The notes under the pieces are model-generated. The model had not been told where the DNA came from. It ran no database searches and saw only the letters and a program-made list of their open reading frames with translations. From assembly GCA_041664205.1 (NCBI GenBank), contig JBAYLF010000001.1:67380-131379 (forward strand): a stretch of 64,000 nt of DNA. Reading direction: 5' to 3'. This stretch comes from Minisyncoccota bacterium. GTDB taxonomy: Bacteria > Patescibacteriota > Minisyncoccia > Phycocordibacterales > JBAYLF01. Shown piece by piece: positions 22,787-36,413 of the stretch. The position numbers were made by a program, and so were the translations under genes. Numbering within the stretch: position 1 is the first letter of the stretch; each line of letters starts with the position of its first letter.

Positions 22787-22800
22787 AGTTAAAACAAAAA

Positions 22801-22826: not shown

Positions 22827-22846
22827 TTTTAAAATTCAATTAAATT

Positions 22847-24145
22847 TTAGTTCAATTTTAGACTCCATAATATAGAATCTTTTTTGTTTGTAAAAAATAG
22901 ATACGTTTCGCTATCATTCAAGAAAAGACTTACGGCATCAATATTTTTTGAGTTTTCAGTTACTGGACTTGAAACTATCTTAAATACTGAATTATTTAGA
23001 TTTATTTTCCATAATTCATCTGTAAAAGTTACAGAACCTTGATACCAATCATCAGGATATAATGCTTTAGGAATCTCTCTTGGAATTGCACAATACAAAG
23101 TTGCTGTTTCTTTTTTACTCCAAACGCATTTTTCTGGAAGAGTTGTAATTGTAAGCGACTCGTCTTTACCACTTTTCATAATTCGATGATAAAGAGAGAA
23201 AGTATCTCCTTGCGAAACAGAAAATATTATATGAGCAAGATCTGGCGAAACAAGCGAAGTCATACCATTTATATTGCCGATTTGTTTTTCAAATGTGCTT
23301 TTACCTTTACTTAGAAAGAATAAGAAACCAGGAACAGACGCTGAAGGTTTTGTTTGAAAAGCAACTATATCAGTTTGTGGCCATGATATTAACCAGCTCT
23401 TTATCGCTGATTGAAAAAATCCTTGTTTTTTTGTTCCATCAGGTTTTGAACTTACTCCTTGAGAACTATCTGAAGTTTCTTGAAGATAAAAAATCATATC
23501 TTTAAGCGGAGAAAGTGCAATTTCTTTTATATCTTGAGTAAGAAAATTACCATTTAATTCTTTTTCTGTGACCTGTTCTCCCGGCTGAGTGCTTTGAGGT
23601 GTTGTGCTCGCCTTTATACTGGTAGGTTGGAGTTTAGCATAAAAAGTATCTACTGATTCGGTATTATCTTTATTGTAACGGATTAGAACTGCTTCTCCTT
23701 TTTCCACCCATTTCGCTTCATAAATTTTAGGAATTGTTGTATTAGATATTTCTTTTATTTCTGGATAATTAGTTTGCGCTTCAAAAACATGACCTGTTGA
23801 TTTTTCCATAAAACGAACAAGATCATTATCATTTGTCTTTTTTATAGTTATTGCGCCAGCGATTGCAGTATTTGATATCTGTCTAAGTCTTGGAAGAGTA
23901 GTTGTTCCATTTTGATACGTTGGAGAAGTATTATTATTCTGATTCTGGGATGATTGATAGTTATTTTGCGTATTAGTATTGCTACTATTATTTGTTGACC
24001 CAAATGGATCAAACTCACTATTTAAAGGATTAAGCTGGCTTATATTTCCTCCTTGATTTAAAAATAGATAATAGAAAATAATAAGACCACCAATCAGAAC
24101 TATTAGAAAAATTATTATTGTTAGAGCTGTTGTTTTCTTAGACAT
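22847..24145 (-). CDS. Membrane-anchored secreted protein with an N/Q/S/T-rich linker (last gene of the T4SS-like locus)
   Basis: N-terminal TM IIIFLIVLIGGLIIFYYLF, a low-complexity linker, then a beta-rich C-terminal domain. Confidence 0.4.
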   Translation of the reverse strand: MSKKTTALTIIIFLIVLIGGLIIFYYLFLNQGGNISQLNPLNSEFDPFGSTNNSSNTNTQNNYQSSQNQNNNTSPTYQNGTTTLPRLRQISNTAIAGAITIKKTNDNDLVRFMEKSTGHVFEAQTNYPEIKEISNTTIPKIYEAKWVEKGEAVLIRYNKDNTESVDTFYAKLQPTSIKASTTPQSTQPGEQVTEKELNGNFLTQDIKEIALSPLKDMIFYLQETSDSSQGVSSKPDGTKKQGFFQSAIKSWLISWPQTDIVAFQTKPSASVPGFLFFLSKGKSTFEKQIGNINGMTSLVSPDLAHIIFSVSQGDTFSLYHRIMKSGKDESLTITTLPEKCVWSKKETATLYCAIPREIPKALYPDDWYQGSVTFTDELWKINLNNSVFKIVSSPVTENSKNIDAVSLFLNDSETYLFFTNKKDSILWSLKLN

Positions 24146-24249
24146 AGTTATATTTTAAAACAATAAGTAGGGTTTGTTTAGTGTATAACTTTATTTTTAC
24201 ATCAAACAAAATACTTCTATCAATACCCGAAAAAACCGCTTAATTAATA

Positions 24250-24684
24250 TTAATTTGAAGTTGAACCCCCCGAGTTTGTATTAACTTGTTGAATATCAAG
24301 AGAAAAAGTAACCAACTTAGGATTTATCGTATACAAAACCATGTATGAAGTCAGCGCAAGTAAAAGTCCGAGCAATGCATAAGTAACTTTACTCTTTCCT
24401 TCTTCCTTACCTGTAAATGAATCTGTAGACATATACTGTGCGCCACCAAGTATGATCATAATTAATGCAAGAAATATAGCGGTAGCAACTCCAACTTTAT
24501 AAAGAACATTTAAATATGCTACGAAACCTCCGCCTGTATATTCGGCGCCTTGAAGTTTAAAGTCAGCAAGAGGAACATATTCAGTAGAAGAGTTTCCAGT
24601 AGTATCCTCAGCAAATGCACAAAAAGGCAAAAATATCCCTATAAGCAAAAAAATCATTGATATGCCAACTATGTATTTCTTCAT
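24250..24684 (-). CDS. VirB2/TrbC-like pilin candidate
   Basis: 144 aa with a signal peptide and two hydrophobic helices (ATAIFLALIMIILGGAQYM and LLGLLLALTSYMVLYTI), the typical T4SS pilin architecture. Confidence 0.4.
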   Translation of the reverse strand: MKKYIVGISMIFLLIGIFLPFCAFAEDTTGNSSTEYVPLADFKLQGAEYTGGGFVAYLNVLYKVGVATAIFLALIMIILGGAQYMSTDSFTGKEEGKSKVTYALLGLLLALTSYMVLYTINPKLVTFSLDIQQVNTNSGGSTSN

Positions 24685-24719
24685 GTATTAATTAATTTAT
24701 TCTTTAATTAAAGTTAAAC

Positions 24720-25904
24720 TTATAATCCAAAAGTAGCTTGGCCATTTGGACTAAACTTCAGCGAAAAAGACGATTCGGCTGATTGGAATGTTTTAGAAAG
24801 ACTTTTTACAAAAACATCAATTGCTGAAGCTCCTTCCTTACTGTCAGCATTTCTGAATAAAATGTTTCCACTATTGTTTCCAGTAATATCTTGCTTGTTC
24901 ATTTGCCATCTATATTTAAGTGTCGAATCATTTCTGTTTGTGACACTAAAAAAGTAAGGTATTGCAACAAATTTCATTTCTTTACCTGTAAGTGATGTTT
25001 CTTTTTGTATCTTATTGTTATAAAGAATTCCAAAAAGCGGACTATTTTCATATATCGCAATTTTAGGTTGGCTATTAGAAGGATCGAAAAACACAGACCT
25101 CTCGGCAGATAAACTTCCCCCCATAGATTTTGCAACAACTTTTATTGTTGTAGGTCTTGTTATTGGGGTTGTATTAAAAACAAAAACATTTTTTCCATAA
25201 CCAGATGCTCCACTAACAACCGAGCCATTCTGTGACCAAGTGTATATAAGATTATTAGGATCAAGACGTTTGCCTCCATAAATAAAATTAGGAAAAGCAA
25301 CTATTGTTACACTGCTTTCTATCGTAAAAAGCGCTTTCCCAGAATAAAAAGGAGGGGTATAAGTATTCGCATCCCAGATCAAATCAACTTCTGCTGGTAT
25401 AAATGAAAGAACTTTCTTAACATAATTTCCATCATTTGTTGTAACTTCTACACTAACAACACTTTCCTTCCCCAATCCACCTGTAGTAAAACCGAAACTT
25501 TTTTCACCGGTTCCGCTAAGTTCTGTTTTACCGTTAACTCTCCAAATAACTTCAGATCGATCTAGATCAAAAGAAAAACTTTGAAGTGTTATTGTTACAT
25601 CATCATATGCTTTTGGATTTTGAGGACTAGAAACAACGGTAAGATTTTCTACTGTCGTAGATTCTTGCTGAAGCGGAGTAAAATCGACTGGCTCATAAGG
25701 TGGAGTAACTAGTGGTGTATAGATATCTGTAGTAGATGTATCATCAGTAGAATCTGATACTAAATCTGCTTGAGCAAACTCAGGAGGCAAAGGAGTATCT
25801 ATTGTTTGTGCAAAAGTTATAAAAGGCAAAAAGAATAAGACGAGTAATAAAATTATTCCTGTTTTCAAAATGGCATTATTACTTTGTGATTTTATAAAAA
25901 CCAT
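24720..25904 (-). CDS. Secreted beta-rich (Ig-like repeats) protein
   Basis: Signal peptide/TM, an acidic T-rich linker, and repeated beta-strand-pattern segments. Confidence 0.4.
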   Translation of the reverse strand: MVFIKSQSNNAILKTGIILLLVLFFLPFITFAQTIDTPLPPEFAQADLVSDSTDDTSTTDIYTPLVTPPYEPVDFTPLQQESTTVENLTVVSSPQNPKAYDDVTITLQSFSFDLDRSEVIWRVNGKTELSGTGEKSFGFTTGGLGKESVVSVEVTTNDGNYVKKVLSFIPAEVDLIWDANTYTPPFYSGKALFTIESSVTIVAFPNFIYGGKRLDPNNLIYTWSQNGSVVSGASGYGKNVFVFNTTPITRPTTIKVVAKSMGGSLSAERSVFFDPSNSQPKIAIYENSPLFGILYNNKIQKETSLTGKEMKFVAIPYFFSVTNRNDSTLKYRWQMNKQDITGNNSGNILFRNADSKEGASAIDVFVKSLSKTFQSAESSFSLKFSPNGQATFGL

Positions 25905-25931
25905 TATTTATTTTTGAATTAACTTAATAAA

Positions 25932-26438
25932 TTATTTTATTGGAAGCGATCTTGTTTTTGTAGTATTTATTTTTTGAACACTTTTACCTTTTGGAATTGC
26001 AGAGCCTCTGGCAACATTTTGTTTTTTTGGTGTGGCTTGATTTCTATTTCTTGAATAGCGAGATGATACATTTCCACTACTGATCATACTATTATTATAC
26101 TCTGCATCTTCTTCTCTAACAATTTTAGTAACTCTCCAAACCATAAAAGTATAATCTGGAATGAATGCACCAACTTCAGGAATAGCACTAACTACTGCAG
26201 AAATTATAAAAGTTCTTGCTTTCTTAGCTTCCCATATCGATATTGATTTTGATGCAAACCATAATCCAAATAATGAATAACCTAATAAATCAATAATGAG
26301 TCCGAATATCCAACCGATAACAGGAATCAACTCTATAAGATTCAAAATATCAAAAAATATTGCTGTTCCAATCATTAGGTCATAATCAATACCTGAAATT
26401 CTTTCCCTTGGTGTTGTATTTGTTCTTACGCCATCCAT
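25932..26438 (-). CDS. Small polytopic membrane protein with a basic C-terminal tail
   Basis: 3 predicted TM segments and a K/R-rich tail. Confidence 0.4.
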   Translation of the reverse strand: MDGVRTNTTPRERISGIDYDLMIGTAIFFDILNLIELIPVIGWIFGLIIDLLGYSLFGLWFASKSISIWEAKKARTFIISAVVSAIPEVGAFIPDYTFMVWRVTKIVREEDAEYNNSMISSGNVSSRYSRNRNQATPKKQNVARGSAIPKGKSVQKINTTKTRSLPIK

Positions 26439-26440
26439 AT

Positions 26441-28330
26441 TTATTTTTTCGTTACAGCTTCTTCATCTTTTCCTTGACCTGCACTTTCAGAAGCCTGCTG
26501 AGCTGCTTCCATTTGTTTGCGATCATCTTTTGCCTTTCTTATTGCCAAAAGCTGTGAAGGGTCTGAAGTAATGATCTGATCTTCTGTATAAGATGAAATA
26601 ACTTTGATAGCTACATGCTTCATTCCAGCGAAAAATATTCCCTCCCCTACGTCAGATTCAAGCAAAAGATATTTTTCCTCTTCTGTAAGATTAAATGTTC
26701 TTTGAATATTATCTATTGATGATGGCGACTGCTTCAATAAAAGCTGAATGGATGAGTTCGTAATAATAGGAAGACCGTATGGCGATTTCAAAAAGTCATC
26801 AACATCCTGCGTAATAGTAGCAAGGCCAAGATAATATTTTCTTCCTCTTTTTGCCAAAGAAAGCAAGAATGATGCAGTATCTTCGGATTTCATCATCCAC
26901 CAAGCCTCGTCAATAACCAGCAATCGTTTCTTTAGTTCTTTTCTAATGGCATTCCATATAAAGTGCGTAACAATATACATAGCAACTGGTTTCAATTCGT
27001 CTTCCATGTCTCTAATAGAGAACACTACGAATTTTTTGTTTATATCAACGTTTGTTGGTTGGTTAATGAAACCTGACCATGTTCCTTTAGTATATTTTGC
27101 AAGTTTTGCAACAAGCGACTCGGCGCCGTCCATACCAGCAAGTACTAATTCAAAGTCAGAAAGAAGTGGTGGTTCGAGATTAGCAAAATCAGATTCCGCA
27201 GTAATGTCTTTAAGTGCATAAGTTTCGGTAATAGCTCGGTCAATAATAGAATCTTCTTCAGGAGTAAGTCCTCCAAGCATAATACGAAAAAGTCCTACAA
27301 GGTTAACGATGTTTGAACGCAAAACATCTGATGGCGATTCATCTTCTCTTGGCATTGGAAGATCAAAAGGATTTATATGATGTTCTGATGTAAGAGATAT
27401 CTTAAAATATCTACCTCCTGTTGCTTCCGCGAGATATTCGTACTCTCTTTCAGGGTCAATCACAAGAACATCGGAATCAAACATCAGTGTTCTTATAATC
27501 TCAAGTTTTGTTGTGTATGATTTTCCCGCTCCAGCTTTTGCAAAAGTTACAGAGTTATAGTTTTCAAGAGAAAATCTATCAAAAAGAATAAGACTTGAAT
27601 TGTGACGATTTATTCCATAAAGAATACCTTTATCCGAAGTAAGGTCAAAAGAAATAAATGGGAAAAGACTTGAAAGAGGCGACGAATTTAATTTCGAGTG
27701 AACATTTAAAAGATCGGTAGCTATTGGTATAACACTTTTAAATCCTTGCTCCTGCTGGAAAAGAGCTGGTTTTACGTAAACTAAACGAGCCTCAAGGATT
27801 GATTTAATCTCTGATTCTACCTTATCAATCTCTGCTTCATTATCACCATATATAGAAATATATAATCCGACATCAAAAATTCTCTCTTGCGCTCTTTGAA
27901 GATCATCTCGAAGTCTTTCGAGATCTTGATATGCTGTGTCCAACATCGGATCGCGAACAACTCCTTTTTCTTCTCTTGTATGTATCTGACTTTGAACCTC
28001 GGCCACTTTTTTCTGGAACTGTCTCAAAACAGTTGAAGTATCTATAGGATGAACAAAAATTGAAATATCATAAACTTTATCCAAGTTTATAATAGGAGCA
28101 AACCAATTATCAGAAAGAAAACGCGGATATGAAATAACGTAAAAGGTACGAACAATTTTATCGCCAAGATTTAATTCTTTTGATGTAATCTTAAGAGCTG
28201 ATGGCGCAATAACATCCTTGAGCTCTAAAACTCCAGTGTCATAAATTTCTTGAGGTAAAAATGAACTGATGTCAGTTGTTTTTTTCTCTTCTTTTTTTGT
28301 TTTACCGAAAAGATCGTCTAATAAAGACAT
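26441..28330 (-). CDS. virB4: VirB4/TrbE-family type IV secretion ATPase
   Basis: Walker A AKAGAGKSYTT and Walker B LLVIDEAWWMM (the DEAW signature of VirB4). The N-terminal IAPSALKITSKELNLGDKIVRTFYVISYPRF resembles the VirB4/PrgJ-type N-domain. Confidence 0.85.
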   Translation of the reverse strand: MSLLDDLFGKTKKEEKKTTDISSFLPQEIYDTGVLELKDVIAPSALKITSKELNLGDKIVRTFYVISYPRFLSDNWFAPIINLDKVYDISIFVHPIDTSTVLRQFQKKVAEVQSQIHTREEKGVVRDPMLDTAYQDLERLRDDLQRAQERIFDVGLYISIYGDNEAEIDKVESEIKSILEARLVYVKPALFQQEQGFKSVIPIATDLLNVHSKLNSSPLSSLFPFISFDLTSDKGILYGINRHNSSLILFDRFSLENYNSVTFAKAGAGKSYTTKLEIIRTLMFDSDVLVIDPEREYEYLAEATGGRYFKISLTSEHHINPFDLPMPREDESPSDVLRSNIVNLVGLFRIMLGGLTPEEDSIIDRAITETYALKDITAESDFANLEPPLLSDFELVLAGMDGAESLVAKLAKYTKGTWSGFINQPTNVDINKKFVVFSIRDMEDELKPVAMYIVTHFIWNAIRKELKKRLLVIDEAWWMMKSEDTASFLLSLAKRGRKYYLGLATITQDVDDFLKSPYGLPIITNSSIQLLLKQSPSSIDNIQRTFNLTEEEKYLLLESDVGEGIFFAGMKHVAIKVISSYTEDQIITSDPSQLLAIRKAKDDRKQMEAAQQASESAGQGKDEEAVTKK

Positions 28331-28356
28331 ATGATTTTAATTAAATTTCTTAGTGA

Positions 28357-29019
28357 TTACTCTAATTGAATAGGTTTCTCCATTTCTCCAGGATTAAATA
28401 ATTTATAAAATAACTCGATTATTTCTTCCGTTCCTAATTGAACGACTCTTACACCACAACGAACAAGTCCTTGCTCTACTACTGATATACGCTGTTCTAA
28501 TTGAGTTCGATGTTCTTCAAAATCAAAACTCTGGTCGGCTTTTTTAGAAGTAGGTTTGTCTTTCTGTGGAAGTATTCCTCCAAATGTTGATTTTTTTATA
28601 TTCAAAATTGCTGGACTGTATGGAATAACAATGAAAAAACTTTTTGTCATAATGTTCGTGCTTTCTGTAAAAGTTCTGATGAATTCTATATACTCACCTG
28701 TTTGAATTTTCATTAGATCTGAAACCTGATCTTTAAGCCTGTTTTCCAAAAGAGCAATGTAAGGTCTAATATCAAGTTTTCTTGATTCTGCAAATATTTG
28801 TATTGAAAAATTAACTGAGTTAAGAAAATTCTGAAACTGCAATATAATAGCGTTCTGCTCATCTTCTGACTTCAATGCAAAGTTTAATGATGATGTCATA
28901 ACAATTGCCCTTAAAGATCCGTCTTTAAGCACTACAATACCGTCTCGGATTTCTTTCATTGGAATAAAATCCTGTGTTGCTTTTGCGTTTTGAGTATTTT
29001 GTGTATTTGGTGCGACCAT
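28357..29019 (-). CDS. Stand-alone VirB4 N-terminal-domain-like (CagE/TrbE/VirB family) protein
   Basis: IRDGIVVLKDGSLRAIVMTSSLNFALKSEDEQNAIILQFQNFLNSV and C-terminal LVRCGVRVVQLGTEEIIELFYKLFNP resemble the N-domain of Gram-negative VirB4. There is no ATPase motif. Confidence 0.4.
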   Translation of the reverse strand: MVAPNTQNTQNAKATQDFIPMKEIRDGIVVLKDGSLRAIVMTSSLNFALKSEDEQNAIILQFQNFLNSVNFSIQIFAESRKLDIRPYIALLENRLKDQVSDLMKIQTGEYIEFIRTFTESTNIMTKSFFIVIPYSPAILNIKKSTFGGILPQKDKPTSKKADQSFDFEEHRTQLEQRISVVEQGLVRCGVRVVQLGTEEIIELFYKLFNPGEMEKPIQLE

Positions 29020-29046
29020 TTAATATTTTTGTTTAAATTGAAATTT

Positions 29047-29499
29047 TTAAAATTTAATCGAATTTTTTTCTTTAATTTCTTTACTTACTCCGCTTAAGTT
29101 TTCATTAATATCTAAACTCCATGTAAGCTCTTTTAATTTACTTTCGGAAAGTTTAGGAATTCTTAAGGAGGATTTTGCTTGTGCTTCTTCTTTTTTAAGT
29201 GTTTTCTTTTCTTCTTTCTTCCAAAGATATAATCTTGATCCTAAATAATATCTAATTGCAGACTCGACGACGAAAATAAAAGGTTTGTTGTTAATTTTAA
29301 TAAACGCTAGAGCAAAAGAAAATCCAAGAACGGGCGCAATAATTAAAAGTGCTGCATAAAATGGCAACAATTTATAAACAATAAATGCAATACCTAGACC
29401 TCCCCCCATATAAACAAATTGTTTAAATGTAAATGGTCCAATTATTTTGTCTTCTATTTCAATGAATTGTGGAACTTGATAACGCATGATATTTTTCAA
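29047..29499 (-). CDS. VirB3/PrgI-like small membrane protein
   Basis: 150 aa. YQVPQFIEIEDKIIGPFTFKQFVYMGGG followed by two TM helices, the PrgI/VirB3 arrangement, immediately upstream of the VirB4 genes. Confidence 0.4.
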   Translation of the reverse strand: MKNIMRYQVPQFIEIEDKIIGPFTFKQFVYMGGGLGIAFIVYKLLPFYAALLIIAPVLGFSFALAFIKINNKPFIFVVESAIRYYLGSRLYLWKKEEKKTLKKEEAQAKSSLRIPKLSESKLKELTWSLDINENLSGVSKEIKEKNSIKF

Positions 29500-29536
29500 T
29501 TTTTACTCCATTCTTATCACTACTATTTACTTTTCT

Positions 29537-29610
29537 GTCATTCCCGCGAAGGCGGGAATCCAGTCTTCATCTTCTCTACTCTGGATTCCCGCCTTCGCGG
29601 GAATGACAGT
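29537..29610. repeat. Double-hairpin palindromic repeat element, copy 1
   Basis: tgtcattcccgcgaaggcgggaatccag ...17 nt... ctggattcccgccttcgcgggaatgaca. Each arm is itself a GAAG/CTTC-loop hairpin. It is GC-rich relative to its surroundings, and a second copy lies at 40129-40200. Confidence 0.7.
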
Positions 29611-29649
29611 GTTGAAGACTTCACAACTTTAAACACTCTTACCCTACAA

Positions 29650-30489
29650 CTAACTCAGTGGCTCCTTATAAGGATCTGTAACGTTAGAATCTTTTTTAAT
29701 CTCTGTCTTCATAACCATTTTCTGTGGCTCTTTTATAATTTTTTCTTCCTTTTGTGATACCACAATGTCATTTAACTTTGCTTCATGAATAGAAAGTAAT
29801 GGTTTGGAAACAGGCGCTTCAATCTCTGGAATATTTAGATCCTGAACTGGTTTTACCGGAACTGCGACAGAATTAGCAACAACTGCAGAACTTATTGGTT
29901 TTTTATCAACGATAACCATTTCCTGTTTTTTATCTTTTGATTCCATAAACATTGTCTGCTTTTGCACATTTGTATCTGTTTTTGAAGTTATAGTTGATGG
30001 ATTTTCAATTTCTTTTAAAAGATCGTCTTTTGACATTTTTTCAAAATCTTCTTCTTTAATTTCCTTAATTGGTGTTGTTGAAACTGTAGGATTTTCTTCC
30101 ATTACTTCAATTTGACTCTCTTGATCTTCAGCTTGCTGTTTTTTTAATTCTTCTTGATAAGCAGTTTCTTCGTCATCGTGCATTTTTATCAACGATTGGC
30201 GTATAGTTTTAAAAATTTGATCATTCACATCAGCAGCTATAGCCTCAGCCTGCCCTGTGCTCATAAGAAGATCGTCTCTTACATCCTTAACAAAATCCTC
30301 TGGATGAGAAATTCCAACCATTACAAGCATCGTGTCAGTTTCAAGCTGATCAATTTGATCTAAGTGCAACGCATGCTTCTTTGAAATTCCTTGAAGAATT
30401 TCTTTAGTGTTTAAAGAAACAATTGCTTGTTTGATGTCTTTTGGAAGACGCTCAAGACTTTGTTTTAATATTTGTTCTGTTTCGTCCAT
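29650..30489 (-). CDS. Acidic coiled-coil protein (T4SS-locus component, probably cytoplasmic)
   Basis: A start at MDETEQ (30489) avoids overlap with the upstream gene. The protein is E/K/Q-rich with no TM. Confidence 0.4.
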   Translation of the reverse strand: MDETEQILKQSLERLPKDIKQAIVSLNTKEILQGISKKHALHLDQIDQLETDTMLVMVGISHPEDFVKDVRDDLLMSTGQAEAIAADVNDQIFKTIRQSLIKMHDDEETAYQEELKKQQAEDQESQIEVMEENPTVSTTPIKEIKEEDFEKMSKDDLLKEIENPSTITSKTDTNVQKQTMFMESKDKKQEMVIVDKKPISSAVVANSVAVPVKPVQDLNIPEIEAPVSKPLLSIHEAKLNDIVVSQKEEKIIKEPQKMVMKTEIKKDSNVTDPYKEPLS

Positions 30490-30508
30490 ATTTTTATTTT
30501 TAAATTTT

Positions 30509-32704
30509 TTACACTGATGCTGTTGGAGGTTTTGGTGTTGGAGGTTTTGGTTTTTCTTCTTGAACACCTTCTCCTGATTTTGTTTGCTCCTTCATCTCAC
30601 TCATTGCAGCTTCAAATATTTTGTCTTTATTACTCTTACTTTTTACTATCTTAGCTAATGCCATCTTGTCTGACTTTCCTAATGCCCCACCTGTCATCTT
30701 TGATAAAATTGATTTTTCTAACCCAGCTTTCATTTTATTTCCTCTATCTCTTGCCTTTTGTTCTATTGCCATTTTCTTGGTAATAGCTGCTTTAGAAATC
30801 TCCATTTTTTTCTCTGTTTCCGCAATTTTTCTTTTTGCCTCTTGTGCTTCTCTATTAGCTGCTTCCCGACGAGAATTAGACATCATTGGATTAGAAGAAA
30901 TAGCAGCTGCTGCTCTTAGATTACTCTTTTCTTTATTTAGTGTTCCTTCTAATTCTTTCATATTTCCTATCTTGCTTTGCTCTGCTGCTGCAGCAAGAGT
31001 TTCAGCTGTTGTTTGACTAGAAACCATTCCATGCATCTGGGTTTTTGCTTCAGTTTGTTTTTTAAGTTCAGCTGCAAAACCACCCCTTCCTCCAGCTGCG
31101 CCTACACCCATAGAACCTCCCACACCAGTAGCTCTAACATCAAAACTTGATTTTCCAACTTTACTCAAACCTTGTAGAGCAAGACGCCCAGCCTTACTAC
31201 CAGCTAAACTTCTAGCAAAATCTGAGTCAGATAACATTTCCGCTCCACGTCCAAATGTTTGTCTTCCTGCCCAACCCGCACCACCTAATACTGCTCCACC
31301 TGCATAAGCTTGGGCTTTACCAACAAATGTGCTTACAGCAGAACCTCCTTTTGAAGCTAATGATCTAGATATCACAAGTGATGCTATTAAAAATGCAGAA
31401 ACCACAATAAAATTTAGAATAATACCCATACTTCCGGAACCACTTGGATTACTAAGAGCATTTATAAATCCTCCATTATTCTTCATGGCCATTGCTGTTT
31501 TAAAACTATCACTAGTCACAATTAAAAGCGTGATCCATATAAGCATGAAAAATATTGGTGCAAAAAATGCTTGAGAAAAAAGTGCGCTCCACCACTTACT
31601 TGTAAAACTTCTGGTTTGAGGAAGCACCATACTAACAAAAGCTAAAGGCGACAATATCATTACCATTACCAAAACTACAAATCTTGTTGCAAAAAGTATA
31701 GCCGCAATAAAAAATACAAACGAGGTGATTAGTAAAAATATTGATCCCATCGTTGCTATTACAAAAGCATTTTCATTTTCAAGAAAAGCAAATTTATTAC
31801 TACCTGAGGCTTTTGCTTTTTCAATTTGATCTTTAGAAGGTATAAATATACTTTGAAGATTATAAACAGACTGAAACGACCCAGAAATATCTGGCGTGCC
31901 GTTAGCAGTTTGCGCACCTGTAGCAGAATAAAATTCTTTAGCTAAAATATTAGAAGAATCAATTATAACTTTTGTAATAAATAAACTGAAATTTATCAGA
32001 ACAATAGCTATTGCAAGTCTAGCAAGAAGCTGTTTAGTACCGAAGTTACTTAATTGAAGTATCGTAGCAATAGCAATATACAGAAGTATAAAAATAAATG
32101 TCATGTTTGCTACATCTCTCAGGGCTAGCCATGCTGTATTAATAGCGTCTATATTCGACACATTCGCAGCCATTTGAACAACAGTAATATTTACAGAATA
32201 ATTTAAAAGTGCAGATGCTTGAGCAAGAATCCATCCACATAATAACAAAAGGGCATAACCAAGATTTTTTAGAAGTAAACTAATACAAGCCCAAGAAAAT
32301 AAATTTATTACTCCACATTGCTTACTAGCGGCTTCTTCAGCCTTTTTTTGCTGATCTTGAGTTTGATATGGTTGAGTATTCTTAATATAGAGACTTCCAT
32401 CAGCATTCTGACTAAGATTCATTGCATAATTATTATCTGCTCCATCAAAAAGCATGGTGGCATGATTTTGACCATAAGCCGTGCTCTTATAACTTACAGG
32501 TTTATCGTTTATATATAGTTGATTATTTGCATCTGCTGTAAGTTTATAATTTGGATCTTGCTGCATTTTTAGAACATTCTGGACTTCATTTGAAAGAGGA
32601 GCTGTAGTATTCGTGGTTTGTGCATTCACACTTAAAGCAAAACTAAGAAGCATAACAATGGTTAAGCTAAAAAATATTAAAGTGTGTAAAATATTTTTTT
32701 TCAT
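30509..32704 (-). CDS. VirB6/TrbL-like polytopic membrane protein with an N-terminal periplasmic domain and a long Gly/Ala-rich then charged C-terminal tail
   Basis: Signal peptide, a roughly 130 aa periplasmic domain, at least 6 TM helices, then a G/A/S-rich region and a lysine/glutamate-rich tail ending in PKPPTPKPP. Confidence 0.55.
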   Translation of the reverse strand: MKKNILHTLIFFSLTIVMLLSFALSVNAQTTNTTAPLSNEVQNVLKMQQDPNYKLTADANNQLYINDKPVSYKSTAYGQNHATMLFDGADNNYAMNLSQNADGSLYIKNTQPYQTQDQQKKAEEAASKQCGVINLFSWACISLLLKNLGYALLLLCGWILAQASALLNYSVNITVVQMAANVSNIDAINTAWLALRDVANMTFIFILLYIAIATILQLSNFGTKQLLARLAIAIVLINFSLFITKVIIDSSNILAKEFYSATGAQTANGTPDISGSFQSVYNLQSIFIPSKDQIEKAKASGSNKFAFLENENAFVIATMGSIFLLITSFVFFIAAILFATRFVVLVMVMILSPLAFVSMVLPQTRSFTSKWWSALFSQAFFAPIFFMLIWITLLIVTSDSFKTAMAMKNNGGFINALSNPSGSGSMGIILNFIVVSAFLIASLVISRSLASKGGSAVSTFVGKAQAYAGGAVLGGAGWAGRQTFGRGAEMLSDSDFARSLAGSKAGRLALQGLSKVGKSSFDVRATGVGGSMGVGAAGGRGGFAAELKKQTEAKTQMHGMVSSQTTAETLAAAAEQSKIGNMKELEGTLNKEKSNLRAAAAISSNPMMSNSRREAANREAQEAKRKIAETEKKMEISKAAITKKMAIEQKARDRGNKMKAGLEKSILSKMTGGALGKSDKMALAKIVKSKSNKDKIFEAAMSEMKEQTKSGEGVQEEKPKPPTPKPPTASV

Positions 32705-32747
32705 TTTTTAATACTTTGTAAAATTCAATCGCCCTAATTTATTAATA

Positions 32748-34430
32748 CTACTTAGTTACTGTTACTTTAGCGCTTTGTGTAACCGAACTTTCTGATTTTA
32801 TGCATGTAATTGTGTAAGTTGTTGTAGTTGCTGGAGATACTGTAATTGAACCTGACGTGCTAGATGCTACAAAATTAGTTCCGGAACATGAAGTAGTGTT
32901 AATTGAACTCCATAAAAGTTTCGATGAGCTTCCTAATTTTATCGAAGTAGGGTCAGCAGCAAATACAACTGTTGGTGTTGCGCTAGAACCTCCATTAAAT
33001 GTTGCTCCGACTGTTTTATTTGAATTAAGTGTAACTGCACACGTTCCTGTGCCTGTGCAAGCTCCTGACCAGCCTGTAAATGTTGCGCCTGTGCCTGGCG
33101 TTGCTGTTAATGTTATTGATGTTCCTGAATTTGATATTTGAGAACAAATTGTTCCACAAGTTATTCCTCCTCCTGAGACTACTCCGGATCCTGTTCCTAA
33201 TTTATTTATAGAAAGAGTATATTTTGTTGTTGTTCCACCACCTGTTGTCCCACCCCCAGTAGTTCCTCCACCAGTTGTGCCCCCTCCTGTAGTTCCTCCA
33301 CCAGAAGGACTCCCGAGATTAAAACCTCCTCCTGTAATGTATGGTCCAATCTTTCTACTATTATTAATTCCGGAACCACTATTACCATAATTAAATGAAT
33401 TACCATTATATGAGCTTCCGTTAGTTCCACTATTAAATTGTTGCTGTGCGTTTTGTAAAGTAGTTGGATCAGTTAAAAGTCCTAGATTTCTCTTTGTGAA
33501 TTGTGTCGACATATCAGATATAAATTCTTGATATTCATTAGAAGATTCAATTCTTCGTAAGTTACTTCCTAAGTTGTTATTTGCTTGTGTCCCTACAACC
33601 GATCCTGGTGTAATTAGGTCAGAATAAAGATTATTAGTGGCTCTGTAAGGCTTAAAACCATCTCCTTGATTAAGAAGGGTCAACTCATTCTGTTGTTTTT
33701 GTTGGATTTGATAATCTAATTGATTTTCTGCTTCTGTGTAAGCACCCCAAATATTATTTCTATTTGCTAACATTTCATCCCACGCTTGTGCACCGCCATT
33801 ATTCCAATCACTCACAAAACTATCAGAATCTGTTAGATATTGATTTTGTTGTTTATTCCTATCCGAGTAATTATCAATATAATCGCTCATTAATGCATTT
33901 TTTACAGTGCTATTAATTGTGTTTTGAGGTAATAAATCAAATTGCTTTTCAAAAAATCTTATTGTTGCTTGATCAGATACATTAGTTAGATAATCATCTA
34001 AATTTGTTACAAACATAGGATTTCCTTGATCTCCTGTATTTACCCATTTAACTGTGTCTTCTGTTATTTTATTAATGACTCCTGAAACTGTTTTAAAATC
34101 TTTACTGTCCAAACTTTCGCCATTAGCACAAGGACCACCAATTCCTACTTCCTTACAAGAAACTGCGCGAGTCCATTGTTCTATAAGAACAAGTAGATCT
34201 TTTGACATTTTTGTCCATTGTTCTATAAGTCGTGTTGATTGTTGTATAGCACTAGAACTTGATTTTATAGCGCTAGTGTTTGATCCTACTTTTGAATCAA
34301 CAACTGGAATTGCGCCACCGGCTAAAGCTGTCCCAGTATTTACTAAGAAAAAGAATAGAATAAATATTGAAAAAATAGCTGCTTTATTTTTCATTTTGGA
34401 AATTATTTTAAAATAGCGATTAAATAACAT
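32748..34430 (-). CDS. Surface/adhesin-like protein with a (GGGTT)x5 repeat, a divergent InlB B-repeat domain and a C-terminal Ig/PKD-like domain
   Basis: Signal peptide. Five 15-nt repeats at 33228-33306 encode GGGTTGGGTTGGGTTGGGTTGGGTT. YTLSINKLGTGSGVVSGGGITCGTICSQ...TFTGWSGACTGTGTCAVTL is the Listeria-Bacteroides (InlB B) repeat pattern. The terminal beta-sandwich segment is TYTITCIKSESSVTQSAKVTV. Confidence 0.55.
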   Translation of the reverse strand: MLFNRYFKIISKMKNKAAIFSIFILFFFLVNTGTALAGGAIPVVDSKVGSNTSAIKSSSSAIQQSTRLIEQWTKMSKDLLVLIEQWTRAVSCKEVGIGGPCANGESLDSKDFKTVSGVINKITEDTVKWVNTGDQGNPMFVTNLDDYLTNVSDQATIRFFEKQFDLLPQNTINSTVKNALMSDYIDNYSDRNKQQNQYLTDSDSFVSDWNNGGAQAWDEMLANRNNIWGAYTEAENQLDYQIQQKQQNELTLLNQGDGFKPYRATNNLYSDLITPGSVVGTQANNNLGSNLRRIESSNEYQEFISDMSTQFTKRNLGLLTDPTTLQNAQQQFNSGTNGSSYNGNSFNYGNSGSGINNSRKIGPYITGGGFNLGSPSGGGTTGGGTTGGGTTGGGTTGGGTTTKYTLSINKLGTGSGVVSGGGITCGTICSQISNSGTSITLTATPGTGATFTGWSGACTGTGTCAVTLNSNKTVGATFNGGSSATPTVVFAADPTSIKLGSSSKLLWSSINTTSCSGTNFVASSTSGSITVSPATTTTYTITCIKSESSVTQSAKVTVTK

Positions 34431-34436
34431 AAATTT

Positions 34437-35459
34437 TTACATATTAGATATTTCCCAAAAATATCCTGCTTCATCTTTATTAAAAGTAATATTATTCTTT
34501 TTTAAATAACTCATAACGTTTTTGTAATTTTGAACCTGCACCGTAGAATAACTTGCAAATTTTTGTAACCCTCCTAAAGCATTGATTGGGTCGCTATCAT
34601 ATAAACTCATTTCAAAAATTCCTTGTCCCATTATGTAATGTGTATTAATAATATCTAAATGGTTTTTGGAAAGCGCTGCTGGCACAGGAATTTTGGAAAG
34701 ATCTTCTGCTAATAAAATGTAATACTTTGCGATCTCTGATAATTTTGCACCTGCATTGTTGTCATTTCCGTTAGTTGAGTTATTAAAAATTTCATAAGGA
34801 TCCGTTGACGCAATATCAGGATAACTAGAAACTGCAAAAATTAAATCGTTACCATATTTTTTGTCTGATTCTTTTGTTCCATCATTAACAATATTTAATG
34901 AACTTAATGAATATTTAATTGTGGCTTCTGTTGGCTTGTAACTATTTACTAATGAATCTATTAATTGTTTTTTTGTGTCTGCATTCAAATTACCTGCATC
35001 TTGTAATTTTAAATATTGCGTAGTCGCATCATTAGCAATTTGTTGTGTTATCGAAACTTGATCGCTACTAATTTCATATGACGCCGCTTTATTTTTATTT
35101 TGATCGACAAAAGTAATACTGTCTTTATTTAACTTATCATTAGGACCTTTCACTAAAGGATTTCTTCCTTGTTTTATTTCATCACCATCTTTTGCACCAT
35201 CGCCATCTGTGTCTGGATTTAATAAATCAGTTTTCCAAAGCGATTCTTCCCAGTCCGGCAACCCATCATTGTCGCTATCTTTTGCTGAATTTAAATCAGA
35301 TACTACCTGGAGAGATTTTACTTCATTAAAATTTTGAACTTTGTAGCCTATTTTTTGACTTAATTTATTGATACCTCCTCTTGATATAAAGAAGAAACCA
35401 CCCACAAAAGCGAGAGATACCAAAAAAATTCCCCAAATTTTTTTGCTTGGCAAGTTCAA
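34437..35459 (-). CDS. Membrane-anchored protein with thrombospondin type-3-like calcium-binding repeats
   Basis: N-terminal TM, then DSDNDGLPDWEE ... DTDGDGAKDGDE (DxDxDG motifs). Confidence 0.5.
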   Translation of the reverse strand: MNLPSKKIWGIFLVSLAFVGGFFFISRGGINKLSQKIGYKVQNFNEVKSLQVVSDLNSAKDSDNDGLPDWEESLWKTDLLNPDTDGDGAKDGDEIKQGRNPLVKGPNDKLNKDSITFVDQNKNKAASYEISSDQVSITQQIANDATTQYLKLQDAGNLNADTKKQLIDSLVNSYKPTEATIKYSLSSLNIVNDGTKESDKKYGNDLIFAVSSYPDIASTDPYEIFNNSTNGNDNNAGAKLSEIAKYYILLAEDLSKIPVPAALSKNHLDIINTHYIMGQGIFEMSLYDSDPINALGGLQKFASYSTVQVQNYKNVMSYLKKNNITFNKDEAGYFWEISNM

Positions 35460-35659
35460 GATAAAAATTCTTAAAAGCAGCTACAATACTTCCAGCTTGC
35501 TTAAATTAATTATATCAAATAATACATATATAGTATGTGAAAAACTTCATTTATGTGGATAGTGAGAAGTAAAAATTTATAAAAAATAATTATTTATTTT
35601 TAAAACAAAAAAGCCAGCGTTTTTTAAGCGCTGGCTTTAGAATTCATACTTTCTTTTTG

Positions 35660-36304
35660 TTACTTTTCTGGTTTCTTTTCTAAAAGTCTCTGAATATTAC
35701 CTGAGTCTTTTTCAATTCTTCCTTGTTCCAATCTCACGTCTATCGTCCATAAAAACCTAGTATCATGCAATGTGTGTAATATCACAGGTTGATTACCGAG
35801 ACTATTCGCGGTTCTAAACTTTAAATCAACTTCACACATAGCAAAGGGGCTTGAAGGAGATAGATCGACTGTATAAGGTTTTCCGATGGCCAAAAAAACC
35901 ACTTTTAGTTTTTGACCAGGTTTTAGAAACCCATTGTTACTCCTGTATTTTTCATTTGATCCACTTAATACCTTGCCAATATTATGACCAGTAGTGGAAT
36001 CAAACAATATCTGCAAGGGAAATTCGGCAGTATTTTGAAAAACATAAGAACAAGCATACATTTCGGTTACCTCAACTTCAGCCATTCCTTTTGTTTTTGC
36101 GTAAATACTACTTATAAACCGTTGGGCTTCCTTATAATAAGGACCATTTTCATCCAAAATATCAATCTTTTGTAGATTTGAATCAACTTCGATAATATAT
36201 TTGGAAATCGCAACATCCTTGTTTCCAACAACCTGATCGGCCATTGAAAAACAAGGGACTAGAAAGTATGTTAATGTCAAAAGAGCAATCATCAGTGTTT
36301 TCAT
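35660..36304 (-). CDS. Secreted protein of unknown function (first gene of the T4SS-like locus)
   Basis: Signal peptide MKTLMIALLTLTYFLVPCFSMA. Confidence 0.4.
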   Translation of the reverse strand: MKTLMIALLTLTYFLVPCFSMADQVVGNKDVAISKYIIEVDSNLQKIDILDENGPYYKEAQRFISSIYAKTKGMAEVEVTEMYACSYVFQNTAEFPLQILFDSTTGHNIGKVLSGSNEKYRSNNGFLKPGQKLKVVFLAIGKPYTVDLSPSSPFAMCEVDLKFRTANSLGNQPVILHTLHDTRFLWTIDVRLEQGRIEKDSGNIQRLLEKKPEK

Positions 36305-36413
36305 TTTCTTTTTCAGTATTTTAAAGTTTCGATGTTTTTACAGCGTTTTTGCTGTTTTCTGCGTTAATTGTATGATATTTTTAAAGATTTGTCAATAAAA
36401 ATGTGAGTTTCAA

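What the first reader, a model, noticed from the sequence alone, without database searches (positions are those of the whole stretch)
22847..36304. Type IV secretion-like / pilus-like locus without coupling protein or relaxase
Twelve co-directional minus-strand genes encode a secretion-system-like set:
- a VirB4 ATPase with Walker A and the DEAW Walker B
- a stand-alone VirB4 N-domain-like protein
- a PrgI/VirB3-like two-TM protein
- a VirB6/TrbL-like polytopic protein with a roughly 300 aa G/A-rich then charged tail
- a VirB2/TrbC-like pilin candidate
- at least five secreted or surface proteins (an adhesin with a GGGTT peptide repeat, InlB B-repeat and Ig domain; a thrombospondin-type-3 repeat protein; an Ig-repeat protein)

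There is no VirD4, relaxase, VirB11 or obvious oriT, so this is unlikely to be a conjugative element. An ultra-small, probably host-associated (CPR-like) genome argues for a cell-cell contact, DNA/protein uptake or pilus apparatus. Several components, including the acidic coiled-coil protein, the 168 aa membrane protein and the 432 aa anchored protein, have no recognisable family.
Basis: partly seen in the sequence, partly recalled or inferred. Interest (0 to 1): 0.8.

Follow-up and report, generated by a model that had tools for sequence, protein, structure and literature searches.

The report
Chromosomal Patescibacteria-type type IV secretion locus

Summary
Window 22847-36304 carries 12 co-directional minus-strand genes between a strong promoter-like site and a 20-bp hairpin terminator.

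**Core components**
- VirB4 (NCBIfam CD1110 family, 379 bits against a cutoff of 325)
- a stand-alone VirB4 N-domain/TrsD-like protein
- PrgI/VirB3
- a VirB6/TrbL-like protein. Its homologues carry PF04610/PF19590, and its AlphaFold model best matches R388 TrwI/VirB6.
- one VirB2-like pilin (38 of 41 orthologues hit PF18895)

No VirD4, relaxase, VirB11 or peptidoglycan hydrolase was found in the ORFs of at least 100 aa across the 64 kb, and the flanks are housekeeping genes.

**Relatives and origin**
- The organism is a Paceibacteria MAG (NCBI WCW87_005xx).
- Eleven of the twelve genes form a module with conserved order in related Paceibacteria genomes. In relatives it sits about 1.5 kb from dnaA, beside yidC.

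**Prior literature**
This matches the Patescibacteria T4SS of Wang 2023 (essential in Southlakia) and Quiñonero-Coronel 2025. It is a new member of a known kind, of modest interest.

**New details from this check**
- A cytoplasmic protein with an invariant C-terminal DPYRE motif belongs to a family of 3,622 clusters.
- A secreted protein has a conserved helical head with no solved structural match, and swappable binding domains.
- Some relatives fuse the pilin to a cell-wall hydrolase domain.

The parts
36367..36395 (-). Promoter-like site (TTGACA-17-TACAAT) upstream of the first gene of the run
   Evidence: Consensus scan, 11 of 12 matches. This is a pattern match only; function is inferred.
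35660..36304 (-). 214-aa protein with an N-terminal hydrophobic signal-like segment. It is co-transcribed by position but is not part of the conserved module.
   Evidence: No Pfam hit. No homologue in any of the 80 related loci. In relatives the upstream neighbours are KsgA and a UvrD-like helicase.
34437..35459 (-). 340-aa membrane-anchored protein. It has one N-terminal TM segment, calcium-binding TSP3 repeats and a ~200-aa C-terminal domain of unknown family.
   Evidence: PF18884 TSP3_bac at 1.1e-7. TM segment at residues 8-26. The profile hits only Ca-binding repeats in the PDB. Present at this position in 31 of 44 full loci by tblastn.
32748..34430 (-). 560-aa secreted protein (548 aa in NCBI, WCW87_00535). 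It has a conserved ~250-aa helical head, then a GGGTT x5 linker, an InlB B-repeat and an Ig-like tail. In relatives the tail is replaced by other binding domains.
   Evidence: - PF18998 at 1.6e-9.
- The N-domain is conserved in 31 loci, and the tails differ: F5/8 type C, Ig-like, fn3.
- AlphaFold2 gives a helical N-domain with block-mean pLDDT mostly 70-97.
30509..32704 (-). 731-aa VirB6/TrbL-like polytopic membrane protein with a ~260-aa G/A-rich then K/E-rich cytoplasmic tail ('extended VirB6')
   Evidence: - Homologues carry PF04610 and PF19590; an identical protein is NCBI WCW87_00530.
- AlphaFold2 model has pLDDT 81 and pTM 0.72.
- Top Foldseek PDB hits are TrwI/VirB6 chains 8rtd_L, 8rt9_F and 7o3v_F/G/J (probability 0.99-1.0, E 6e-3 to 3e-2, TM 0.42-0.49).
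- About 6-7 TM-like segments.
29650..30489 (-). 279-aa acidic cytoplasmic protein (NCBI MFA6338537.1). It has a conserved ~100-aa helical N-domain, a variable linker and an invariant C-terminal DPY(R/K)E motif.
   Evidence: - No TM segment. No Pfam or PDB family.
- The motif ends one ORF per locus, at this position, in 64 related loci.
- The family has 3,622 representative clusters at E<=1e-3. Of the best 150, 109 keep DPY[RK]E within the last 14 residues.
- The start codon agrees with NCBI.
29538..29606 (.). REP-like perfect palindrome (29-bp stem) in the gap between the DPYRE protein gene and prgI
   Evidence: RNA MFE -60.6 kcal/mol, z = -13.4. A second copy lies at 40130-40198, with a compensatory change between the arms. 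No Rfam family.
29047..29499 (-). 150-aa PrgI/VirB3-like membrane protein
   Evidence: PF12666 at 32.6 bits, cutoff 27. The hydrophobic stretch spans about residues 30-70; the hydropathy scan resolves only one peak, at 49-67. Found in 44 of 44 full loci, median 51% identity across all matched loci.
28357..29019 (-). 220-aa TrsD-like protein, a stand-alone VirB4 N-terminal domain
   Evidence: NF041427 TrsD at 1e-7. Matches VirB4 models only at their N-terminal positions. Found in 44 of 44 full loci, median 64% identity across all matched loci.
26441..28330 (-). 629-aa VirB4 ATPase lacking the usual N-terminal domain
   Evidence: NF045971 at 378.8 bits, above the cutoff of 325. PF19044 at 2.6e-25. 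PDB 4AG5 at 3.7e-41. Walker A and B motifs present. At least 502 relatives; the best 80 are 75-84% identical.
25932..26438 (-). 168-aa small polytopic membrane protein with a basic tail, starting 2 bp after the virB4 stop
   Evidence: TM-like segments. An iterated HMM finds the family directly after virB4 in 48 of 74 loci. No significant Pfam or NCBIfam family.
24720..25904 (-). 394-aa secreted or anchored protein with three W-x-x-NG repeat units, probably Ig-like domains
   Evidence: N-terminal hydrophobic segment. The profile gives weak hits to the Ig-like Hoc protein (9.7e-4). Found in 44 of 44 full loci.
24250..24684 (-). 144-aa VirB2-like T4SS pilin with a signal peptide and two hydrophobic helices. 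It is the only pilin gene in the window.
   Evidence: PF18895 at 15.8 bits, below the cutoff. 38 of 41 syntenic orthologues hit PF18895, best 4.7e-10. Three hydrophobic segments. A pilin HMM finds no second copy in the 64 kb.
22847..24145 (-). 432-aa protein with an N-terminal TM anchor, an N/S/T/Q-rich linker and a probable beta-propeller ectodomain
   Evidence: TM segment at residues 6-24. The profile weakly matches TolB propellers (E 0.08-0.5). Orthologues give weak DPPIV_N and PD40 hits, and two carry PG_binding_1. Found in 44 of 44 full loci. The fold was not modelled.
22789..22832 (-). Terminator-like hairpin closing the run, shared with convergent jag/yidC
   Evidence: 20-bp stem, 4-nt loop, T-run. 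Pattern match only.

Best explanation
**What it is**
The locus is the vertically inherited, chromosomal type IV secretion system typical of Patescibacteria. It derives from the conjugation machinery of monoderm bacteria (MPF-FATA type) and has lost the DNA-processing parts.

**Shown by the tools**
- A split VirB4 ATPase (TrsD-like N-domain plus ATPase body).
- A PrgI/VirB3 membrane anchor.
- An extended VirB6 channel protein.
- A VirB2-like pilin.
- A conserved set of envelope and surface proteins.
- No relaxase, coupling protein or VirB11 in 64 kb.

**Inferred mechanism**
- VirB4/TrsD, held at the membrane by PrgI, powers assembly of the VirB6 translocon and extraction of pilin into a short pilus or conduit.
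- The anchored beta-propeller, Ig-like and Ca-binding proteins span or organise the wall.
- The secreted protein, with its conserved helical head and lineage-variable binding tail, contacts the host cell.
- The apparatus then moves macromolecules between the ultra-small cell and the host it lives on, rather than transferring its own DNA. Which substrate moves, and in which direction, is unknown.
- The cytoplasmic protein with the C-terminal DPYRE motif is a conserved partner. It may dock on the ATPase.
For: **Component identities**.

**Not mobile**
- Housekeeping flanks: YidC, Jag, NusA, trigger factor, ClpP, RNase Y, DnaA, DnaN.
- GC content of 0.31-0.36 matches the neighbouring sequence.
- Gene order p340-p560-VirB6-DPYRE protein-PrgI-TrsD-VirB4-p168-p394-pilin-p432-(jag)-yidC recurs in 44 of 44 full related loci (43 of 44 with yidC). 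All are Paceibacteria MAGs.
- In relatives the module ends a median of 1,453 bp from dnaA.

**Constraint**
VirB4 is 80% identical across these genomes, against 63% for DnaA and 48% for YidC. These loci were chosen by VirB4 similarity, which inflates the VirB4 figure.

**Literature**
- The same component set, the lack of a relaxase and the origin-proximal position are described for 2,417 of 3,035 Patescibacteria genomes (PMC12102498).
- The homologous cluster is essential for epibiotic growth of Southlakia epibionticum (PMC10633639).
- Tubular structures that may be T4SS pili are seen at a host interface (bioRxiv 10.64898/2026.06.21.733656).

**Host-facing variability**
The tail of the 560-aa family varies, as do the C-terminal extensions of pilin orthologues.
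Against: - No experiment exists for any Paceibacteria system. Essentiality is known only for one Saccharimonadia species, whose cluster differs: six pilins, lysozyme/peptidase and an NTF2-like protein.
- Direction and substrate of transport are pure inference.
- A coupling protein could be encoded elsewhere on the 300-kb contig, outside the window. The 2025 survey finds VirD4-like genes far from virB4 in most genomes.
- The pilin and VirB6 assignments rest on orthologues and a modest fold match (TM 0.42-0.49), not on direct above-threshold profile hits.
- The beta-propeller and Ig-like calls are weak (E 1e-3 to 0.5).
- No VirB8-like or VirB1-like component was found, so how the wall is crossed is unexplained.
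Confidence: 0.85

Rival explanations
1. It is a DNA (or RNA) import machine. A conjugation-derived T4SS would run in reverse to take up host nucleic acids, as the archaeal Ced system and the H. pylori ComB system do, feeding a cell that cannot make nucleotides.
For: - No relaxase or coupling protein is present, so export of the cell's own DNA is unlikely.
- The authors of PMC12102498 favour import of DNA or other macromolecules.
- A 2026 preprint reports host RNA acquisition and possible T4SS pili in a cultivated relative.
- The window encodes a nucleotide-salvage cluster: dUTPase, Tmk, dCTP and dCMP deaminases, ThyX.
- There is a weak CedB match.
Against: - The CedB match is 31 bits against a cutoff of 700.
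- No CedA/CedA1/CedA2 or ComB-specific parts were found.
- No nuclease or DNA-binding protein is in the module.
- In Southlakia, comEC-dependent DNA uptake is dispensable while the T4SS is essential. That neither supports nor excludes T4SS import.
- This is a sub-case of the best explanation rather than a contradiction of it.
Confidence: 0.3
2. It is an effector-secretion system that injects proteins into the host bacterium to make it leak or supply nutrients. It would work without a coupling protein, as the Bordetella Ptl and Brucella VirB systems do.
For: - T4SSs without a T4CP exist and secrete proteins.
- Wang 2023 suggest protein export as a possibility.
- The conserved cytoplasmic protein with a strictly C-terminal DPYRE motif could be a substrate or adaptor, since T4SS signals are usually C-terminal.
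Against: - No recognisable toxin or effector-immunity pair lies in or next to the module.
- The DPYRE motif occurs in only one protein per locus, so it is not a signal shared among several neighbouring substrates.
- Ptl-type secretion uses the Sec pathway and an outer-membrane channel, which is absent in a monoderm.
Confidence: 0.2
3. It is only a pilus/adhesion organelle. VirB4 would assemble a VirB2 filament tipped or decorated by adhesins for attachment to the host, with no translocation through it.
For: - A pilin is present, although monoderm conjugation systems lack one.
- Several surface proteins carry binding-type domains: InlB B-repeat, Ig-like, and F5/8 type C in relatives.
- The host-facing parts are variable.
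Against: - A conserved extended VirB6 channel protein and PrgI are retained under constraint.
- Patescibacteria already use type IV pili for adhesion, so a second adhesion-only organelle would not obviously be essential.
Confidence: 0.15
4. It is the decayed remnant of an integrated conjugative element that lost its relaxase and coupling protein.
For: - The VirB4 is closest to ICE/plasmid families of Firmicutes and Mollicutes (NF045971, NF045975).
- A tyrosine recombinase (50698-51642) and four tRNA genes lie 9-14 kb upstream.
Against: - All twelve ORFs are intact.
- The order is conserved across at least 44 genomes, next to yidC/dnaA.
- VirB4 is 75-84% identical among relatives, with no pseudogenes in the window.
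- Genes between the locus and the recombinase are core housekeeping genes.
- GC content is uniform.
Confidence: 0.03

Closest known systems
Patescibacteria-clade T4SS as surveyed by Quiñonero-Coronel et al. 2025 (Microb Genom, PMC12102498), Paceibacteria arrangement
   Same: - VirB4 with an adjacent TrsD, PrgI/VirB3, VirB6 and a VirB2-like pilin near virB4.
- No relaxase.
- Chromosomal, next to yidC/rnpA/rpmH/dnaA, with KsgA upstream in relatives.
   Different: - In this genome the module, together with yidC and jag, sits 21.5 kb from dnaA, not the ~1.5 kb seen in relatives. KsgA is replaced upstream by a 214-aa orphan and nusA.
- In the parts of the paper read here, accessory genes without a profile match are left uncharacterised ('coloured in grey' in Fig. 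6). Six such genes are delineated here.
Southlakia epibionticum ML1 T4SS, SEML1_0006-0019 (Wang et al. 2023, Cell, PMC10633639)
   Same: - VirB4, TrsD-like, PrgI, VirB6-like and VirB2-like pilin genes in one cluster.
- No recognisable coupling protein or relaxase.
- The cluster is close to position 1 of the genome record (genes SEML1_0006-0019, about 5-24 kb).
   Different: - Southlakia has an array of six pilins, a lysozyme/glucosaminidase gene next to virB4, an NTF2-like (VirB8-type) protein and a 300-aa PrgI.
- The window has one pilin, no hydrolase, no detectable NTF2 protein and a different accessory set.
- Essentiality is shown only for Southlakia.
Staphylococcal pGO1/pSK41 Trs conjugation system (MPF-FATA subclass with TrsC-TrsD-TrsE)
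   Same: The adjacent order VirB3-like, TrsD, VirB4 and the split-off VirB4 N-domain protein (PMC12102498).
   Different: According to the accounts, the plasmid systems are conjugative, with a relaxase and a coupling protein. The pGO1 subclass also has a VirB1-type hydrolase profile (TrsG), no VirB6 homologue and no pilin. It is mobile rather than chromosomal core.
R388 Trw / Agrobacterium VirB (MPF-T) systems of diderm bacteria
   Same: VirB6 fold (TrwI is the best structural match), VirB2-type pilin architecture and the VirB4 motor.
   Different: The window has no outer-membrane core (VirB7/9/10), no VirB5 or VirB8 detected, and no VirB11 or VirD4. Sequence similarity of VirB4 to TrwK is only 3e-6.
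T4SSs that work without a coupling protein (Bordetella Ptl, Brucella VirB)
   Same: No VirD4-type protein in the cluster, and a non-conjugative role.
   Different: Those are diderm MPF-T systems that secrete defined toxins or effectors into eukaryotic hosts. No such substrate is recognisable here.

Membership tests
Type IV secretion system (defined by VirB4) | VirB4-family ATPase with Walker A and B motifs | tested here: met
   NF045971 at 378.8 bits (cutoff 325). PF19044 at 2.6e-25. PDB 4AG5 at 3.7e-41. Motifs at residues 264 and 470-477.
Patescibacteria-clade T4SS (PMC12102498) | VirB4 falls in the monophyletic Patescibacteria clade nested in MPF-FATA | tested here: inconclusive
   No phylogeny was run. 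Indirect support: the best curated model is an MPF-FATA family, and all 80 nearest genomic relatives (75-84% identity) are Patescibacteria MAGs.
Patescibacteria-clade T4SS (PMC12102498) | TrsD-like protein encoded next to virB4 | tested here: met
   The 220-aa protein matches NF041427 at 1e-7 and the N-terminal positions of VirB4 models. It lies 26 bp upstream of virB4.
Patescibacteria-clade T4SS (PMC12102498) | PrgI/VirB3 and VirB6 homologues near virB4 | tested here: met
   PrgI PF12666 scores above its cutoff. For VirB6, homologues carry PF04610/PF19590 and the model matches the TrwI fold.
Patescibacteria-clade T4SS (PMC12102498) | VirB2-like pilin gene near virB4 | tested here: met
   The window protein scores below the cutoff on its own (15.8 bits). 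However, 38 of 41 positional orthologues hit PF18895, and the architecture fits: signal peptide plus two helices.
Patescibacteria-clade T4SS (PMC12102498) | No relaxase associated; chromosomal core context near the replication origin | tested here: met
   No relaxase or T4CP among ORFs of at least 100 aa in the 64 kb. yidC and jag are adjacent, and dnaA is 21.5 kb away. The rest of the 300-kb contig was not examined.
Conjugative element (ICE or plasmid, MPF-FATA) | Relaxase, type IV coupling protein and an origin of transfer | tested here: not met
   None was found in the window by Pfam or NCBIfam. oriT cannot be recognised without a relaxase family.
Conjugative element (ICE or plasmid, MPF-FATA) | Mobile-element boundaries (integrase or att sites) and patchy distribution among related genomes | tested here: not met
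   The nearest recombinase is 14 kb away, behind housekeeping genes. The same position next to yidC is found in 43 of 44 genomes.
VirB6/TrbL family (PF04610) | Direct profile match of the 731-aa protein | tested here: not met
   No Pfam or NCBIfam hit at E<=0.1 for the window protein itself. Membership is inferred through homologues and fold.
VirB8 / VirB1 components of monoderm T4SSs | NTF2-like bitopic protein; peptidoglycan hydrolase in the cluster | tested here: not met
   No such family was found in any of the 12 proteins, or in profiles of four accessory families searched against the PDB. Some relatives carry VanY/M15/YkuD/CHAP domains fused to the pilin. Only two structures were modelled, so a divergent VirB8 fold is not excluded.
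Archaeal Ced DNA-import system | CedB-type ATPase at family level, with CedA partners | tested here: not met
   NF041017 CedB scores 31 bits against a cutoff of 700. No CedA-like proteins were identified.

The most novel reading that the evidence does not exclude
The six conserved accessory genes would make this a distinct Paceibacteria sub-architecture of the T4SS.

- The cytoplasmic protein with the invariant C-terminal DPYRE-P-[IVL]-[ED] motif would replace the missing coupling protein. It would act as the adaptor that docks on the split VirB4/TrsD motor, or it would be the system's universal substrate.
- The secreted protein, whose helical head has no solved structural match and whose binding tail is exchangeable, would be a VirB5-like pilus-tip host-recognition factor that sets host range.
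- Pilin-hydrolase fusions in relatives would supply the missing VirB1 function.
Probability: 0.25. Interest if true: 0.6.

Novelty: new member of a known kind. Interest (0 to 1): 0.3.

Why it matters
The Patescibacteria T4SS is one of the few machines known to be essential for the epibiotic life of a lineage estimated at about a quarter of bacterial diversity. What it transports is an open question.

This locus adds no new kind of system. It does give a clean, complete Paceibacteria example with defined operon boundaries. The comparison also yields testable handles:
- A conserved cytoplasmic partner with a short C-terminal motif, suitable for pull-down or AlphaFold-multimer work.
- A surface protein whose variable tail could predict host specificity.
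- Natural pilin-hydrolase fusions that may explain how the wall is breached without VirB1.

Tried and rejected
2. **DUF4141 lead.** DUF4141 proteins are encoded next to traJ in Bacteroides conjugative transposons (PMC10434189). One of 32 orthologues hit DUF4141 at 1.3e-5. The conserved N-domain alone gave no DUF4141 hit in any member, even at E<=1, so the lead was dropped.
3. **Single-sequence homologue search with the window's 560-aa head.** It found only two proteins. A profile query was needed, and it returned mostly a related Kaiserbacteria-type subfamily about 20% identical to the window protein. The model of the head therefore rests on distant relatives.
4. **Direct family assignment of the accessory proteins.** The 432-, 394-, 340-, 305- and 168-aa proteins gave only weak or partial signals by Pfam, NCBIfam or PDB profile: TolB/DPPIV propeller, Hoc-like Ig, TSP3.
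5. **Fusion of the DPYRE protein with other components.** No fusion with PrgI, TrsD, p168 or the pilin was found in distant family members.
6. **Extending the survey beyond the window.** One look-up failed, probably because of a different start codon. The other returned only a 9-kb contig.
7. **Second pilin copies.** None in the window.
8. **ICE remnant hypothesis.** Rejected on synteny and context.

Full report
**Observation**

The region 22847-36304 holds twelve minus-strand ORFs with short gaps (2-200 bp) and no intervening plus-strand genes. A near-consensus promoter-like site (TTGACA-17-TACAAT) lies at 36395-36367. A hairpin with a 20-bp stem and a T-run lies at 22832-22789, directly after the last stop codon. 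The run therefore looks like one transcription unit of 13.5 kb. GC content (0.31-0.36) does not differ from the flanks.

**Core components**

- **VirB4.** The 629-aa protein passes the curated cutoff of the CD1110-type VirB4 family (378.8 bits against 325) and matches PF19044. Its best solved relative is the VirB4 C-terminal domain 4AG5 (3.7e-41). R388 TrwK matches at 3e-6. Walker A (AGAGKS, residue 264) and Walker B (LLVIDEAW, residues 470-477) are present.
- **Split VirB4.** The 629-aa protein aligns to VirB4 models only from about position 185. The upstream 220-aa protein aligns to the first ~115-240 positions and to TrsD. VirB4 is thus split as in the pGO1 TrsD/TrsE pair.
- **PrgI/VirB3.** The 150-aa protein matches PrgI above the Pfam threshold.
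- **VirB6.** The 731-aa protein has no direct profile hit. Its homologues carry PF04610 (TrbL/VirB6) and PF19590. An AlphaFold2 model of residues 1-500 (pLDDT 81, pTM 0.72) has TrwI/VirB6 chains of the R388 machine as its top PDB matches (probability 0.99-1.0, E 6e-3 to 3e-2, TM 0.42-0.49). Its ~260-residue tail is G/A-rich and then K/E-rich. This is the 'extended VirB6' type mentioned in PMC12857230.
- **Pilin.** The 144-aa protein has a signal peptide and two hydrophobic helices. On its own it scores below the cutoff against PF18895. However, 38 of 41 positional orthologues hit that family. It is the only pilin gene in the window.

**Surroundings**

Pfam scans of every ORF of at least 100 aa in the 64 kb found only core genes:
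- ArgRS, a nucleotide-salvage set, PPDK, NusG, L11 and YidC+Jag on one side.
- NusA, trigger factor, ClpP, RNase Y, CCA-adding enzyme, a XerC/D-type recombinase, PNPase, DnaA, DnaN and a class A PBP on the other.

There is no VirD4, relaxase, VirB11 or peptidoglycan hydrolase. dnaA starts 21.5 kb from the upstream end of the run.

**Relatives**

The 731-aa, 560-aa and 305-aa proteins are identical to NCBI entries WCW87_00530, _00535 and _00525. These come from a Candidatus Paceibacterota MAG, on a contig of 300,645 bp.

A scan of one genome per species with VirB4 found at least 502 relatives. The best 80 (75-84% identity) are all Paceibacteria/Parcubacteria-type MAGs.

In the 44 loci with full 10-kb flanks, the order is p340 - p560 - VirB6 - (p305) - PrgI - TrsD - VirB4 - (p168) - p394 - pilin - p432 - (jag) - yidC. 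This order is conserved. VirB4, TrsD, PrgI, p394 and p432 occur in 44 of 44 loci, and yidC in 43 of 44.

Two genes that tblastn under-detects are in fact near-universal:
- The gene before prgI ends in DPY(R/K)E in 64 loci.
- A small membrane protein follows virB4 in 48 of 74 loci.

The 214-aa first gene and nusA have no counterpart in relatives. Their upstream neighbours are KsgA (38 of 44) and a UvrD-like helicase (31 of 44). The conserved module is therefore eleven genes.

In relatives the module ends a median of 1,453 bp from dnaA, through yidC-rnpA. In this genome a rearrangement has moved the module, with yidC and jag, about 20-35 kb away from rnpA-dnaA.

Median identity to the window proteins is as follows:

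| Protein | Median identity |
|---|---|
| VirB4 | 80% |
| TrsD | 64% |
| DnaA | 63% |
| PrgI | 51% |
| YidC | 48% |
| Envelope/surface proteins | 26-39% |

The loci were selected by VirB4 similarity, so the VirB4 figure is biased upward.

**Accessory proteins**

- **p432.** One TM anchor, a low-complexity linker and an ectodomain with weak TolB/DPP-IV/PD40 propeller signals. Two orthologues add a peptidoglycan-binding domain.
- **p394.** Secreted, with three repeats showing weak Ig-like (Hoc) similarity.
- **p340.** Anchored, with calcium-binding TSP3 repeats and an unassigned C-terminal domain.
- **p305** (279 aa from the NCBI start). Cytoplasmic and acidic, with a ~100-residue helical N-domain, a variable linker and a C-terminal DPYRE-P-[IVL]-[ED] end. 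An exhaustive search finds 3,622 representative clusters at E<=1e-3. Of the best 150, 109 keep DPY[RK]E within the last 14 residues. Most of the rest carry near variants such as DPYHE, DPYLE or DPYRL, or end without any motif and may be truncated. Some members have the N-domain twice. No Pfam or PDB family matches it.

No VirB8-like or VirB1-like protein was detected.

**What is known**

Wang et al. 2023 (PMC10633639) found an 'apparent T4SS' (SEML1_0006-0019) essential for epibiotic growth of Southlakia epibionticum. They describe it as closest to Gram-positive conjugative systems, but with pilins and without recognisable coupling and relaxase proteins.

Quiñonero-Coronel et al. 2025 (PMC12102498) found VirB4 in 2,417 of 3,035 Patescibacteria genomes. 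Almost all fall in one clade nested in MPF-FATA. TrsD, PrgI/VirB3, VirB6 and VirB2-like pilins lie nearby. Relaxases are rare. The chromosomal location is next to dnaA, dnaN, rnpA, rpmH and ksgA. They propose import of DNA or other macromolecules.

The 2025 FEMS review lists these systems as a new T4SS group. A 2026 preprint reports tubular structures that may be T4SS pili at a host interface.

The window locus fits this description feature by feature. Only the VirB4 phylogenetic placement was not tested directly.

**Mechanism**

*Shown:* the parts list, the conserved order, the core chromosomal context and the absence of DNA-processing genes nearby.

*Inferred from established T4SS biology:*
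- VirB4 (with TrsD) bound to PrgI/VirB3 energises assembly.
- VirB6 forms the membrane channel.
- VirB2 subunits are extracted from the membrane into a pilus or conduit.
- The anchored and secreted proteins organise wall passage and host contact.

The variable tail of the p560 family and the variable pilin extensions in relatives suggest that these are the host-facing, fast-evolving parts.

Substrate and direction of transport cannot be decided from sequence. The candidates are nucleic-acid or other macromolecule import, effector export, or adhesion only. A decayed-ICE explanation is contradicted by the synteny and the intact genes.

**Verdict**

The system is a routine member of a published, widespread kind, so the novelty is low.

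The modest added value is threefold: the delineation of the eleven-gene Paceibacteria module, the DPYRE-tailed cytoplasmic family, and the helical-head surface protein with exchangeable tails. These are leads for the open question of what this essential machine does.

Noticed in passing
window 29538-29606 and 40130-40198: Two copies of a REP-like perfect palindrome: 29-bp stem, 17-nt loop, RNA MFE -60.6 kcal/mol, z = -13.4. One copy sits inside the T4SS operon between the DPYRE protein gene and prgI. The other sits in the convergent gap after trigger factor. The arms are conserved with one compensatory change and the loops differ. No Rfam family matches. It produces a spurious plus-strand ORF at 29419-29757.
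   Followed up: partly
window 29650-30489 (-) and the equivalent gene in 64 related loci: A cytoplasmic protein family with an invariant extreme C-terminal motif, DPY(R/K)E-P-[IVL]-[ED], about three residues from the end. There are 3,622 representative clusters in the exhaustive search. It is unannotated in Pfam and the PDB. In the loci examined it is always encoded between VirB6 and PrgI.
   Followed up: yes
related loci, e.g. L006:12978-14204, L036:14580-15425, L043:12286-13131, L061:12880-13926: Orthologues of the VirB2-like pilin carry non-homologous C-terminal extensions of 100-300 aa. A few of these hit cell-wall-active domains (VanY, Peptidase_M15_4, YkuD, CHAP; one member each). These natural pilin-hydrolase fusions might stand in for the missing VirB1. 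The window pilin has no extension.
   Followed up: partly
window 21530-22786 versus 57200-59219: In 51 related loci, dnaA starts a median of about 1.5 kb beyond the module, with yidC and rnpA between them where detected. In this genome, yidC-jag and the module are separated from rnpA-dnaA by about 35 kb of housekeeping genes, which implies a rearrangement near the origin. Cumulative GC skew reaches its minimum near 46-48 kb.
   Followed up: partly
loci L001-L080 compared with the window: Across the same genomes, VirB4 (median 80% identity) is more conserved than DnaA (63%), DnaN (48%) and YidC (48%). The surface proteins of the module are only 26-39% identical. The loci were picked by VirB4 similarity, so the contrast is inflated.
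   Followed up: partly
window 5248-13670: A cluster of deoxynucleotide salvage and conversion genes: dUTPase, thymidylate kinase, an HAD-like hydrolase, a dCMP deaminase-type enzyme, dCTP deaminase, and a 429-aa ThyX-like protein whose Thy1 domain covers only residues 39-212. This fits an organism that depends on imported nucleotides.
   Followed up: no
window 33228-33304 and 30521-30551: Coding tandem repeats. A 15-bp unit repeated five times gives the GGGTT peptide repeat of the 560-aa protein. A 15-bp unit repeated twice gives PKPPT-PKPPT at the C-terminus of the VirB6-like protein.
   Followed up: no
window 55278-56879 (+), 37865-38635 (+), 20695-21303 (-), 19920-20537 (-): Several sizeable ORFs next to the origin and to the T4SS module have no Pfam family. 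They include a 533-aa protein beside rnpA and a very basic 256-aa protein with one TM segment after nusA.
   Followed up: no
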